Positions 51,100 to 52,300 are shown, counted from the first letter of the stretch. The stretch is DNA of 64,000 nt from the human T2T-CHM13v2.0 reference genome, Homo sapiens (GCF_009914755.1 NC_060926.1); one strand, 5' to 3'. Notes: generated by a model from the sequence alone, not told the origin. Numbers and translations: made by a program.

Positions 51100-52300
51100 G
51101 TTGTGGGAAGTGGTCCGTGGGGGGCTCCGAGTTCAAATATAAGGGTGGGGCTCGCCTCCTCCGGGCGCCTCTGGATGGACAGGCCAGAGCTCCAGAGGCC
51201 CAGGCGATGGAAGCTCTGCCTGGGTGGGGCTCAAGGCGACTGCTGCCCTTGGAGCCCTTGGAGCGTCCCCAGAGCCAGCCGCCCTCGTGGGCACACAGGC
51301 CCTTCCCCGCCCAGATGCGACGCATCCTGCCCCGCGACACCTCCTTCACCACCCTGCGGGACCCAGCCCTCGTCCTGGAGTCCGCTTTCTACAAGACGGC
51401 CTCTCCCTTCGTCGGAGCCCGGATCCTGCGCCACTTCCTGCGCCTTCTACGACCCCAGGTGGCCCGACAGGCACCATGGCCACAACCTCATGGCCTTGGA
51501 CTTAGGCTTCGACCACAACGCGCCGCCGCCTTGTAGGGTGGCAACGCGCCTCTTGGCCCCGGGGGTGCAAGCGGTGGCCGCGCGCTTCGACCTGCTGCTG
51601 ATCGCCCAGCACCTGGACGAGTCCCTGGGGCTCCTGCGCCGCACTGCGCTGGGGCCTGGATGACCTGGTGGCCGTCCCCGCCCACTGGCGCGCGGCCTTC
51701 GGCCCGGAGCCGCTGGAGCCGCGCGTGGAGTGCAGGGCGAGCGCCTAGAACGCGCTGGACCTGGCGCTCTGTGCGCACTTGAACCGCACGCTGTGGGCGT
51801 GGCTGGGCGCGCTGGGGGCCGCTGGGCTGCCGCTGGAGGTGGCTGCGCTGCGGGAGCGGTGGGCGCGCACCTGCCTCCTGCATGGCGAGGCCTGGGGGCG
51901 GGGCGCGGAGCTTGACCCGCAGCTGGCGCCGCTGCAGCGCGGCCTGGCGCCCATCCTGGGCTACCGGCTGCCACCAGACCTGGACCAGGCCACCCGCCGC
52001 CACTGCCAGGACCTGGCCACCCCAGAGCTGCAGTTCGCCAGGCGCGTTCCCGGAGTGGGTGTGGGATCCGGGACGCCCTTGGGGAGCAGAGCTCCAGGCC
52101 AGGCAGCGTCGCGCGGCAGGCCCAGGCCCAAGGGAAAATGTGGGCCGTGTTCAGAGGCGGGCAGGGGTCCGTAGGGCCCTGGAGCAGAAGGGCGCGCCCT
52201 CAGCCCCTGTTACATGGGACCCCACAGGGCGGGCGACAGTGGCCAGGAGCCCCAGCCGAAACTGCTCCGTCCCGGCTCCCTTTTCTGCGCATCCTTCTGC
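51100..52300. promoter_or_regulatory. CpG island overlapping the GAL3ST-like pseudo-exon
   Basis: Very high GC content and dense CpGs (cgcgc runs), in sharp contrast to the AT-rich repeats upstream. Confidence 0.75.
51315..52060 (+). pseudogene. Galactose-3-O-sulfotransferase (GAL3ST2-like) pseudogene, catalytic last exon
   Basis: Stitched frames read MRRILPRDTSFTTLRDPALVLESAFYKT / HNLMALDLGFDHN...RFDLLLIAQHLDESLGLLRR / LRWGLDDLVA / [17 protein letters not shown]...ILGYRL...[11 protein letters not shown]. These are collinear with GAL3ST motifs (LRxP..ES.F, MxFDxGFD, LIAEHLDESLVLLRR, WxLDD, WNALD..LY.HFN.T.W, ILGY.L, PELQY). There are several frameshifts and a TAG at 51746-51748. Confidence 0.88.

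What the first reader, a model, noticed from the sequence alone, without database searches (positions are those of the whole stretch)
51301..52060. Decayed GAL3ST2-like sulfotransferase exon: probable lost gene between GPR35 and AQP12B
Seen: four reading-frame segments join into about 240 codons collinear with the catalytic domain of galactose-3-O-sulfotransferases. They include the 3'-phosphate-binding LRDP..LES.F motif, LIAQHLDESLGLLRR, WGLDD, NALD...NRTLW and PELQF. At least three frameshifts or deletions and a TAG at 51746 (where the family has Trp, WNALD) inactivate it. Homology begins exactly after a polypyrimidine tract and CAG (ccttccccgcccag|ATG, 51314/51315). Known, from memory: the GAL3ST2 last exon starts at the equivalent residue (VQKVMPNDT), and GAL3ST2 is also on 2q37.3. 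Inference: this is an unprocessed, strongly diverged paralog, possibly a unitary pseudogene of a fifth GAL3ST that is intact in other mammals. That would mean a glycan-sulfation enzyme lost in the human lineage. I cannot tell whether it is already annotated.
Basis: partly seen in the sequence, partly recalled or inferred. Interest (0 to 1): 0.85.

Follow-up and report, generated by a model that had tools for sequence, protein, structure and literature searches.

The report
Relic of a lost fifth GAL3ST
This stretch is the dead last exon of a galactose-3-O-sulfotransferase gene that many other vertebrates and a few placental mammals still carry, so it records an old gene loss rather than a working element.

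Summary
Window 51315-52048 (+) reads, in three frames, as about 247 codons collinear with Pfam Gal-3-0_sulfotr positions 142-397 (best piece E 6.7e-17). It has two frameshifts and a TAG at 51746 in place of a conserved Trp. Homology starts directly after a polypyrimidine tract and AG, at the same codon and phase as the last-exon acceptor of human GAL3ST2 and GAL3ST4, so the relic is unprocessed.

RefSeq lists it as LOC100420500, "GAL3ST1 pseudogene", but GAL3ST1 is among its most distant relatives (37% identity). Predicted "GAL3ST2-like" proteins of armadillo, tamandua, golden mole and hedgehog are the nearest (61-65%).

ML trees place it inside that clade (100/100). The clade joins marsupial, sauropsid, amphibian and fish "GAL3ST2-like" genes and lies apart from GAL3ST1-4. 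AU tests reject union with GAL3ST2 (p 0.03 and 0.004).

No upstream exon remains in 94 kb.

A second relic lies beyond AQP12A, on the other arm of the AQP12 palindrome. It is absent from the supplied gene table. It shares the 2-bp deletion and the TAG, so the gene died tens of millions of years ago, not recently in humans.

Synteny in other species could not be tested. Interest is moderate.

The parts
51243..51314 (+). Remnant of the 3' end of the last intron: polypyrimidine tract and acceptor AG (ccccgcccag). It is also the outer limit of the palindrome arm.
   Evidence: Homology between the two relic copies begins at about 51241-51243 and includes the tract and AG in both. The acceptor is at the same codon and phase as in GAL3ST2 and GAL3ST4.
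51315..51440 (+).
   Evidence: Pfam profile 142-175. Aligned to GAL3ST2-like proteins. A one-codon deletion at about 51344 is shared with copy 2. A 6-bp deletion at about 51389 is in this copy only.
51440..51444 (+). Frameshift 1: site of an 11-bp deletion found only in this copy.
   Evidence: Copy 2 keeps the 11 bases.
51445..51639 (+). Relic segment 2 (frame 1): FYDPRWPDRHHGHNLMALDLGF...AVAARFDLLLIAQHLDESLGLLR.
   Evidence: Pfam profile 193-258, E 1.2e-9.
51640..51640 (+). Frameshift 2: a 2-bp deletion leaves a single base where there was a codon. Shared with copy 2.
   Evidence: 51640 in copy 1, 80353 in copy 2. The copies have no indel between them here.
51641..51745 (+). Relic segment 3 (frame 2): ALRWGLDDLVAVPAHWRAAFGPEPLEPRVECRASA.
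51746..51748 (+). TAG replacing the conserved Trp of WNALD. Shared with copy 2.
51749..52048 (+). Relic segment 4 (frame 2): [16 protein letters not shown]...[11 protein letters not shown] three-codon deletion at about 51859 is shared with copy 2.
   Evidence: Pfam profile 294-397, E 6.7e-17.
52046..52080 (+). C-terminal end of the relic. A 14-bp deletion in this copy removes the LYLRQ codons that copy 2 keeps; FPEWVW follows out of frame.
52420..52735 (.). Alu-like insertion present in this arm only. It sits exactly between the diverged outer segment and the near-identical inner arm.
   Evidence: It matches dispersed repeats at about 80% and has no partner at the mirrored place; arm identity jumps from 84.5% to 97.7% across it.
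51241..64000 (.). Left arm of the AQP12B/AQP12A inverted duplication (runs on to 64697, beyond the window). The relic is its outermost 1.2 kb.

Best explanation
Window 51315-52080 is a non-functional, unprocessed relic. It is the last coding exon of the human ortholog of a fifth vertebrate galactose-3-O-sulfotransferase gene, which databases label 'GAL3ST2-like'.

By family membership (inferred, not assayed), the ancestral gene would have encoded a PAPS-dependent Golgi sulfotransferase. Its catalytic domain was split by an intron at the same site as in GAL3ST2 and GAL3ST4.

In the lineage leading to humans the gene was disabled by a 2-bp deletion and a Trp-to-TAG change. The exon or exons encoding the N-terminal half of the domain were lost.

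The dead exon, 72 bp of its intron and the neighbouring AQP12 gene then became part of an inverted duplication. That produced a second relic beyond AQP12A.

The inner arms are kept almost identical, presumably by gene conversion. The outer 1.2 kb lies beyond an Alu insertion present in one arm only, and has diverged by about 11%.

Shown here: domain homology, the lesions, the intron site, the second copy, the tree position and the absence of upstream exons.
Inferred: orthology, the order of events and the role of the Alu as a conversion barrier.
For: Domain homology:
- Pfam hits are collinear across three frames. The whole-genome scan gives E 4.4e-19.

Nearest relatives:
- Predicted GAL3ST2-like proteins of Chrysochloris, Tamandua and Erinaceus plus one unnamed record score 58-63% identity (4 of 5115 candidates passed E 0.001).
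- With one frameshift-aware method, identity is 65% to Dasypus and 61% to Erinaceus GAL3ST2-like. Against human genes it is 44% (GAL3ST2), 38% (GAL3ST4), 37% (GAL3ST1) and 40% (GAL3ST3).

Trees:
- Careful ML tree of 51 rows, last-exon columns: the two relics pair at 100/100 and sit inside the eutherian GAL3ST2-like clade at 100/100.
- Careful ML tree of 59 rows, whole domain: relics with hedgehog 98/88; the eutherian clade with marsupials 98/96; the fish-to-tetrapod clade 98/94, following the species tree. GAL3ST2 proper is separate at 100/100 and includes sloth and shrew.
- AU tests reject relics with GAL3ST2 (p 0.030) and GAL3ST2 with eutherian GAL3ST2-like (p 0.0039).

Unprocessed origin:
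- The acceptor is at the homologous codon and phase.
- The model P0003 carries an insert exactly at TEV|...|VQRV, as a retained intron there would give.

Status of the relatives:
- Complete domains, profile 46-402, in P0001, P0002 and P0004.

Lesions and genome context:
- Lesions shared by both copies are listed.
- The human genome holds only four other matching loci plus the two relics.
Against: - Synteny of the intact genes with GPR35 and AQP12 was not testable here, so orthology is inferred.
- The last-exon tree put eutherian GAL3ST2 and GAL3ST2-like as sisters (90/79). It disagrees with the whole-domain tree on the age of the lineage.
- treekit flags unusual amino-acid make-up in the relics and in four of the six eutherian GAL3ST2-like proteins. 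Shared GC-driven composition may inflate their attraction.
- Both AU groups were named after trees had been seen.
- Identity to marsupial and turtle GAL3ST2-like proteins (45-47%) is no higher than to GAL3ST2 (44-50%). The link to the older lineage therefore rests on the tree and passes through a long eutherian stem (0.60).
- The Dasypus model lacks the first 84 profile positions.
- The 'intact' relatives are gene predictions, not shown to be expressed.
- Lesions shared by the two copies could have been spread by gene conversion after the duplication. They date the death to before the copies began to diverge, not strictly to before the duplication.
Confidence: 0.8

Rival explanations
1. A dead-on-arrival partial duplicate of GAL3ST2, which lies 1.13 Mb distal, copied within primates. 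On this reading no gene was ever lost.
For: GAL3ST2 is the closest human gene: 45.7% over 140 aa by tblastn and 44-50%. It is on the same chromosome arm. The last-exon tree makes the GAL3ST2 and GAL3ST2-like clades sisters (90/79).
Against: The relics are 61-67% identical to eutherian GAL3ST2-like proteins and nest among them at 100/100. AU p is 0.030 against a clade with GAL3ST2. DNA identity to the GAL3ST2 exon is only 68-71% over 300-430 bp.
Confidence: 0.04
2. A pseudogene derived from GAL3ST1, as the RefSeq name says, for example a retrocopy.
For: The RefSeq description of LOC100420500, as given in the hub table. Nothing in my calls supports it.
Against: GAL3ST1 gives 34-37% identity, among the lowest of the four human genes. 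Homology stops at an intron acceptor where the chr22 gene has one continuous exon covering profile 43-401. In the trees the chr22 gene sits with the GAL3ST1 outgroup, far from the relics.
Confidence: 0.01
3. The coding function is dead, but the DNA has been taken over for a non-coding role, such as a CpG-island regulatory element or a lncRNA exon. That would explain why it stays so GC- and CpG-rich.
For: GC is 0.73 and 0.72, and CpG observed/expected is 0.80 and 0.73, in the two relics. That is unusually high for sequence evolving without coding constraint for a long time.
Against: No RefSeq functional element or exon is listed there in the hub table. The two copies differ at 23% of CpG-context sites and by seven indel events within the exon, which does not look constrained. 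GC-biased gene conversion near a chromosome end could give the same composition (inference).
Confidence: 0.1
4. The eutherian 'GAL3ST2-like' proteins and the relics come from a placental-specific duplicate of GAL3ST2, not from an ancient fifth lineage. The gene loss is real but concerns a young paralog.
For: The last-exon tree (90/79). The long eutherian stem (0.60-0.62). Identity to marsupial forms no higher than to GAL3ST2. N-terminal extensions of the eutherian models show no similarity to marsupial or sauropsid ones at E 1e-3.
Against: The whole-domain tree joins the eutherian clade to marsupials at 98/96 inside a clade congruent with the species tree. AU p is 0.0039 against GAL3ST2 plus eutherian GAL3ST2-like. 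A lizard protein labelled GAL3ST2 groups with GAL3ST2 proper (93/80).
Confidence: 0.1

Closest known systems
Predicted 'galactose-3-O-sulfotransferase 2-like' proteins of placental mammals (Chrysochloris P0001, Tamandua P0002, Erinaceus P0004, Dasypus P0006, and unnamed P0003 and P0007)
   Same: 61-67% identity over about 250 codons. Same clade at 100/100. Shared stretches such as [16 protein letters not shown] and [18 protein letters not shown].
   Different: Those are open reading frames with a complete catalytic domain (Dasypus is truncated at the N-terminus). The human sequence has frameshifts and stops and lacks the N-terminal half.
Human GAL3ST2 (chr2:242.30 Mb)
   Same: Same Pfam family, same last-intron position and phase, same chromosome arm.
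   Different: 44-50% amino-acid and 68-71% DNA identity. A separate clade. Intact.
Vertebrate long-form 'GAL3ST2-like' genes (marsupials, turtles, lizards, birds, amphibians, teleosts; 525-690 aa)
   Same: They form one clade with the eutherian GAL3ST2-like proteins and the relics, and that clade follows the species tree (98/94).
   Different: 45-47% identity to the relic. Their N-terminal extensions resemble each other but not those of the eutherian models.
Unitary pseudogenes of humans (for example GULOP; recalled, not tested here)
   Same: An unprocessed relic at the ancestral locus, no working copy of that lineage in the genome, and intact relatives in other species.
   Different: Here only one exon is left, and it was later duplicated, so two relics exist. 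Orthology by synteny has not yet been shown.
RefSeq LOC100420500, 'galactose-3-O-sulfotransferase 1 pseudogene'
   Same: Same DNA (51339-52033 in the hub table).
   Different: The data here point to the GAL3ST2-like lineage as parent, not GAL3ST1. The twin copy beyond AQP12A is not in the hub table.

Membership tests
Galactose-3-O-sulfotransferase domain (Pfam PF06990) | Significant match to the family profile | tested here: met
   Two of four pieces score over the 27-bit cut-off (38 and 61.9 bits). The genome scan gives 78.9 bits.
Galactose-3-O-sulfotransferase domain (Pfam PF06990) | Whole domain present, including the N-terminal half with the FLKxHK motif (motif name and role recalled) | tested here: not met
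   Nothing upstream of profile position 142. tblastn with four human exons and eight GAL3ST2-like proteins, and an HMM of the N-terminal half, found nothing in 94 kb. The best hit (E 0.89) is an AT-rich chance match. Positive controls scored 8.7e-39 to 3e-28.
Galactose-3-O-sulfotransferase domain (Pfam PF06990) | Open reading frame | tested here: not met
   Two frameshifts, one TAG and a 14-bp terminal deletion.
Eutherian GAL3ST2-like lineage (fifth GAL3ST) | Groups with members of that lineage to the exclusion of GAL3ST1-4 | tested here: met
   100/100 in two careful ML trees. AU p 0.030 against GAL3ST2.
Eutherian GAL3ST2-like lineage (fifth GAL3ST) | Same genomic neighbourhood as the intact genes (synteny) | not testable with these tools
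   No mammalian genome other than the window's own is held.
Unitary (unprocessed, orthologous) pseudogene | Keeps intron-exon structure at the parental site | tested here: met
   Polypyrimidine tract and AG at the codon and phase of the GAL3ST2 and GAL3ST4 acceptors, in both copies.
Unitary (unprocessed, orthologous) pseudogene | No intact copy of the same lineage in the genome | tested here: met
   The PF06990 scan of the whole assembly gave 13 matches: four other loci and the two relics. Only the best candidates are scored, so this is a lower bound.
Unitary (unprocessed, orthologous) pseudogene | Functional ortholog in other species | tested here: inconclusive
   Full-domain predicted proteins exist and the tree follows the species tree. 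Expression, activity and synteny were not tested.
Processed pseudogene of GAL3ST1 (the RefSeq label read literally) | Closest to GAL3ST1, with homology running across GAL3ST1's continuous exon | tested here: not met
   34-37% identity, among the lowest of the four human genes. Homology ends at an intron site that the chr22 gene lacks.

The most novel reading that the evidence does not exclude
Vertebrates have a fifth, uncharacterised galactose-3-O-sulfotransferase lineage that runs from fish to marsupials. It survives in only a few placental lineages (golden mole, xenarthrans, hedgehog). It was lost early on the branch leading to primates and apparently in most other placentals. The only traces in the human genome are two last-exon relics on the arms of the AQP12 palindrome. 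If so, a whole glycan-sulfating activity is missing from the human and mouse enzyme set and has gone unstudied because the model mammals lack it.
Probability: 0.65. Interest if true: 0.5.

Novelty: new member of a known kind. Interest (0 to 1): 0.4.

Why it matters
The human GAL3ST family is usually counted as four enzymes. The data here suggest a fifth lineage that is widespread in vertebrates and was lost on the way to humans. Its acceptor substrate is unknown, and opossum, chicken, frog or fish could serve to study it.

The locus also corrects a database label ("GAL3ST1 pseudogene") and adds a twin relic that is missing from the supplied gene table.

Finally, the relic gives a minimum age for the AQP12A/B palindrome. 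That palindrome carries a known polymorphic human inversion (HsInv0241; PMC3961182, passages read). Its diverged outer edge shows how far arm-to-arm homogenisation reaches.

None of this points to a working element in humans.

Tried and rejected
- Upstream exons. tblastn with the human GAL3ST2 and GAL3ST4 upstream exons and with eight GAL3ST2-like proteins found nothing in 94 kb (the window plus 30 kb distal). Neither did an HMM of the N-terminal half run with all filters off. The best hit (window 28886-29032, E 0.89, 'FEILCNHF') lies in AT-rich sequence and is taken as chance. Hits of the GAL3ST4 upstream open frame were Alu-derived translation, not gene homology.
- Solved structures. A search with the longest segment gave only chance matches (E 0.13 and above).
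- Other coding readings. The long antisense and +3 open frames over the relic (250, 220 and 273 aa) have no Pfam match. I take them as by-products of about 75% GC.
- Arm homology beyond 51241/80746. Nothing but an Alu pair.
- N-terminal extensions as a synteny-free orthology test. The eutherian models share nothing detectable with marsupial or sauropsid ones, so the test is uninformative.
- Protein Atlas. It returned only generic family clusters.
- Literature. No paper for 'LOC100420500'. The 'GAL3ST2' + 'pseudogene' search found 20 papers, 15 listed and judged from listing and abstract starts only; none concerned this locus. Searches for a vertebrate GAL3ST phylogeny, for 'GAL3ST5' and for 'galactose-3-O-sulfotransferase 2-like' returned one paper each, none on the topic. 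The single 'GAL3ST5' mention is a mucin-gene expression readout in a goblet-cell line, with no link to this locus (passage read).

Full report
**What is there**

The window is human chr2:241118001-241182000 (hub table). Between 51315 and 52048 the + strand translates in three frames into four open segments.

Pfam's Gal-3-0_sulfotr model (PF06990, 402 positions) matches them collinearly:
- positions 142-175 (E 0.02);
- positions 193-258 (E 1.2e-9);
- positions 294-397 (E 6.7e-17).

A scan of the whole assembly joins positions 258-397 across the stop at E 4.4e-19. A search of solved structures with the longest segment found only chance matches. The long open frames on the opposite strand and in the third + frame have no Pfam match.

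**Lesions**

I aligned the DNA to three of the nearest proteins with an aligner that allows frameshifts. It gave 247 aligned codons, 153-160 of them identical. The lesions in this copy are:
- a one-codon deletion at about 51344;
- a 6-bp deletion at about 51389;
- an 11-bp deletion at about 51440-51444 (frameshift);
- a 2-bp deletion at 51640 (frameshift);
- TAG at 51746-51748 where the family has Trp;
- a three-codon deletion at about 51859;
- a 14-bp deletion at about 52046.

**It is unprocessed**

Homology begins at 51315, directly after ccccgcccag. Human GAL3ST2 (cacag|GTGCAGAAA...) and GAL3ST4 (ctgcag|GTACTTCAG...) start their last exons at the same codon in the same phase. The chr22 and chr11 genes have one continuous exon across this point (profile 43-401 and 52-402).

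One predicted relative (P0003) carries an extra stretch exactly between TEV and VQRV, as a retained intron there would give.

I assigned the names GAL3ST1-4 to the four human loci from chromosome position, which I recalled. The trees support three of the four: the human exons group with named GAL3ST2, GAL3ST4 and GAL3ST1 proteins of other species. The GAL3ST3 name rests on recall alone.

**What it is related to**

Among human genes GAL3ST2 is the closest. By tblastn it gives 45.7% over 140 aa, against 34%, 33% and 37% for GAL3ST1, GAL3ST3 and GAL3ST4. With the frameshift-aware method the figures are 44%, 37%, 40% and 38%.

A protein database search with the read-through of 51602-52045 (stop as X) found four longer proteins at 58-63% identity, out of 5115 candidates scored. 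They are "galactose-3-O-sulfotransferase 2-like" of Chrysochloris, uncharacterised proteins of Tamandua and Erinaceus, and one unnamed record.

Searching on with the golden-mole catalytic region gave 324 hits at E 1e-20 or better among 8000 candidates, of which 120 were listed. Two more placental members appeared: Dasypus and one unnamed record. There were also many proteins of about 525-690 aa labelled GAL3ST2 or GAL3ST2-like, from marsupials, turtles, squamates, crocodilians, birds, amphibians and teleosts.

P0001, P0002 and P0004 cover Pfam positions 46-402. The Dasypus model starts at position 85. Identity of the relic to Dasypus and Erinaceus is 65% and 61%.

**Trees**

For tree 1 I chose by hand, for taxonomic spread, 45 of the 120 listed proteins. 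I added the four human exon translations and the two relics, each read through with X at every break (51 rows). Only the columns of the last exon were used.

The careful ML tree pairs the two relics at 100/100 and puts them inside the placental GAL3ST2-like clade at 100/100. Primate and pika GAL3ST2 are separate at 100/99. Forcing the relics into one clade with GAL3ST2 costs 33.4 log-likelihood units (AU p 0.030).

In that tree the two placental clades were sisters (90/79). That would allow a placental-specific duplication.

For tree 2 I kept 33 of the 45, added 20 proteins (GAL3ST2 of sloth, shrew, dog, pig and mole-rat; a lizard GAL3ST2; several GAL3ST4 and GAL3ST1) and used the whole domain (59 rows, 349 columns). 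The careful tree gives:
- relics with hedgehog, 98/88;
- then xenarthrans, 93/69;
- then the golden-mole pair, closing the placental clade at 100/100;
- that clade with marsupials, 98/96;
- the whole group from teleosts to mammals, 98/94, in species-tree order.

GAL3ST2 proper (100/100) sits with the lizard GAL3ST2 (93/80). GAL3ST4 forms its own group. Forcing GAL3ST2 and placental GAL3ST2-like together costs 53.4 units (AU p 0.0039).

Caveats:
- Both AU groups were named after trees had been seen.
- The placental GAL3ST2-like stem is long (0.60).
- treekit flags unusual amino-acid make-up in the relics and in four of the six placental GAL3ST2-like proteins.
- The two trees disagree on the deeper node.

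**Distribution**

A search with the Dasypus protein covered 202-644 aa. It gave 134 hits at E 1e-30 or better among 8000 candidates, of which 120 were listed. No further placental GAL3ST2-like member appeared beyond P0003 and P0007. GAL3ST2 proper appeared for dozens of placental species.

This suggests, but does not prove, that most placentals lack an annotated intact copy. Assembly gaps in GC-rich subtelomeric DNA and the candidate cap could hide some.

**The rest of the gene is gone**

No trace of the N-terminal half of the domain was found in the window plus 30 kb distal (94 kb). This was tested by tblastn and by an HMM run without filters. The HMM's positive controls scored 8.7e-39 to 3e-28. 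Its best hit in the region, at E 0.89, is an AT-rich chance match.

**A second copy and the palindrome**

The genome scan found a second, minus-strand match at chr2:241197944-241198352, beyond AQP12A. In window-based coordinates it lies at about 79.9-80.7 kb. The hub's gene table lists nothing there.

Comparing the flanks shows an inverted duplication with about 13.5-kb arms and a 3.2-kb spacer:

| Segment | Left arm | Right arm | Divergence |
|---|---|---|---|
| Inner | 53978-64697 | 78594-67875 | 0.12% |
| Middle | 52735-53818 | 79594-78510 | 2.2% |
| Outer | 51241-52403 | 80746-79584 | 10.9% substitutions (K2P 0.118; 7.4% at non-CpG sites) plus eight indel events |

Beyond 51241/80746 nothing matches except an Alu pair. 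An Alu-like insert at 52420-52735, present only in the left arm, sits exactly where identity drops. I infer that it has shielded the outer segment from arm-to-arm conversion.

The inner arms are the repeats of the known polymorphic inversion HsInv0241. The paper's table also gives an orientation for chimpanzee and gorilla (PMC3961182, passages read).

**Order of events**

Both copies share the one-codon deletion, the 2-bp frameshift, the TAG and the three-codon deletion. Each also has private lesions:
- Copy 1: the 6-, 11- and 14-bp deletions.
- Copy 2: a 1-bp insertion, 23- and 8-bp deletions, and two further TAGs.

The gene was therefore dead before the two copies began to diverge. Strictly, this could mean before the duplication or before the last conversion that covered this segment.

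Because the arm starts only 72 bp upstream of the exon, at least one copy never had the rest of the gene.

Genome-wide human-macaque divergence is about 6% and human-marmoset about 10-11%; I recalled these figures and did not compute them. On that scale the 7-11% divergence points to some tens of millions of years. This is a rough figure for a fast-evolving, CpG-rich subtelomeric region. The loss is not recent or human-specific.

**Comparison with what is known**

RefSeq annotates the stretch as LOC100420500, "galactose-3-O-sulfotransferase 1 pseudogene" (hub table), so the feature itself is known.

My library searches found no paper on this locus, on a fifth vertebrate GAL3ST, or on "GAL3ST2-like" in vertebrates. 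The library does not hold most subscription journals, and I could not see GENCODE.

**Verdict**

This is an ordinary kind of object: an unprocessed relic of a lost gene, with no sign of present function.

The interesting part lies outside humans. There appears to be an uncharacterised fifth GAL3ST lineage, kept by most vertebrate groups and by a few placentals.

Confidence in the main reading is 0.8. The missing piece is synteny.

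Noticed in passing
outside the window: chr2:241197900-241198750, minus strand (about 79.9-80.75 kb in window-based coordinates; locus L014:5880-6790): A twin relic of the same exon beyond AQP12A. It is not in the hub's gene table. 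It keeps the C-terminal LYLRQFPE codons that copy 1 lost, and has its own two extra TAGs and three frameshifting indels.
   Followed up: yes
window 51241-64000 and on to 80746 outside the window: The AQP12B/AQP12A palindrome has a stepwise identity gradient: 99.88%, 97.8% and about 89% from the centre outward. The last step falls exactly at an Alu-like insert (52420-52735) present in one arm only. That suggests the insert limits arm-to-arm gene conversion.
   Followed up: partly
window 51315-52060 and the twin copy: Both relics still meet CpG-island criteria (GC 0.73 and 0.72; CpG observed/expected 0.80 and 0.73) although the coding function is long dead. The cause could be GC-biased conversion or an unmethylated state; this was not resolved.
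   Followed up: partly
window 51447-52199 (-), 51488-52150 (-), 51783-52604 (+): Open frames of 220-273 aa overlap the relic on other frames and strands. They have no Pfam match and are most simply a by-product of about 75% GC.
   Followed up: yes
proteins P0001-P0004, P0006, P0007 (placental GAL3ST2-like): This clade has a very long stem (0.60 changes per column). Four of these six proteins, and both relics, are flagged for unusual Ala/Arg/Gly/Pro-rich make-up. The N-terminal extensions of the four models compared (P0001-P0004) resemble neither marsupial nor sauropsid ones. The Dasypus model lacks the first 84 profile positions, and P0003 seems to include a retained intron.
   Followed up: partly
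window 53818-53978: A gap of about 160 bp in the arm-to-arm alignment, between the 97.7% and 99.88% blocks. It was not examined and could be an indel or a tandem repeat.
   Followed up: no
locus L006 (human GAL3ST4 upstream exon region): The open frame that runs on from the GAL3ST4 upstream exon continues into Alu-derived sequence. This produced many spurious tblastn hits to Alus in the window.
   Followed up: yes
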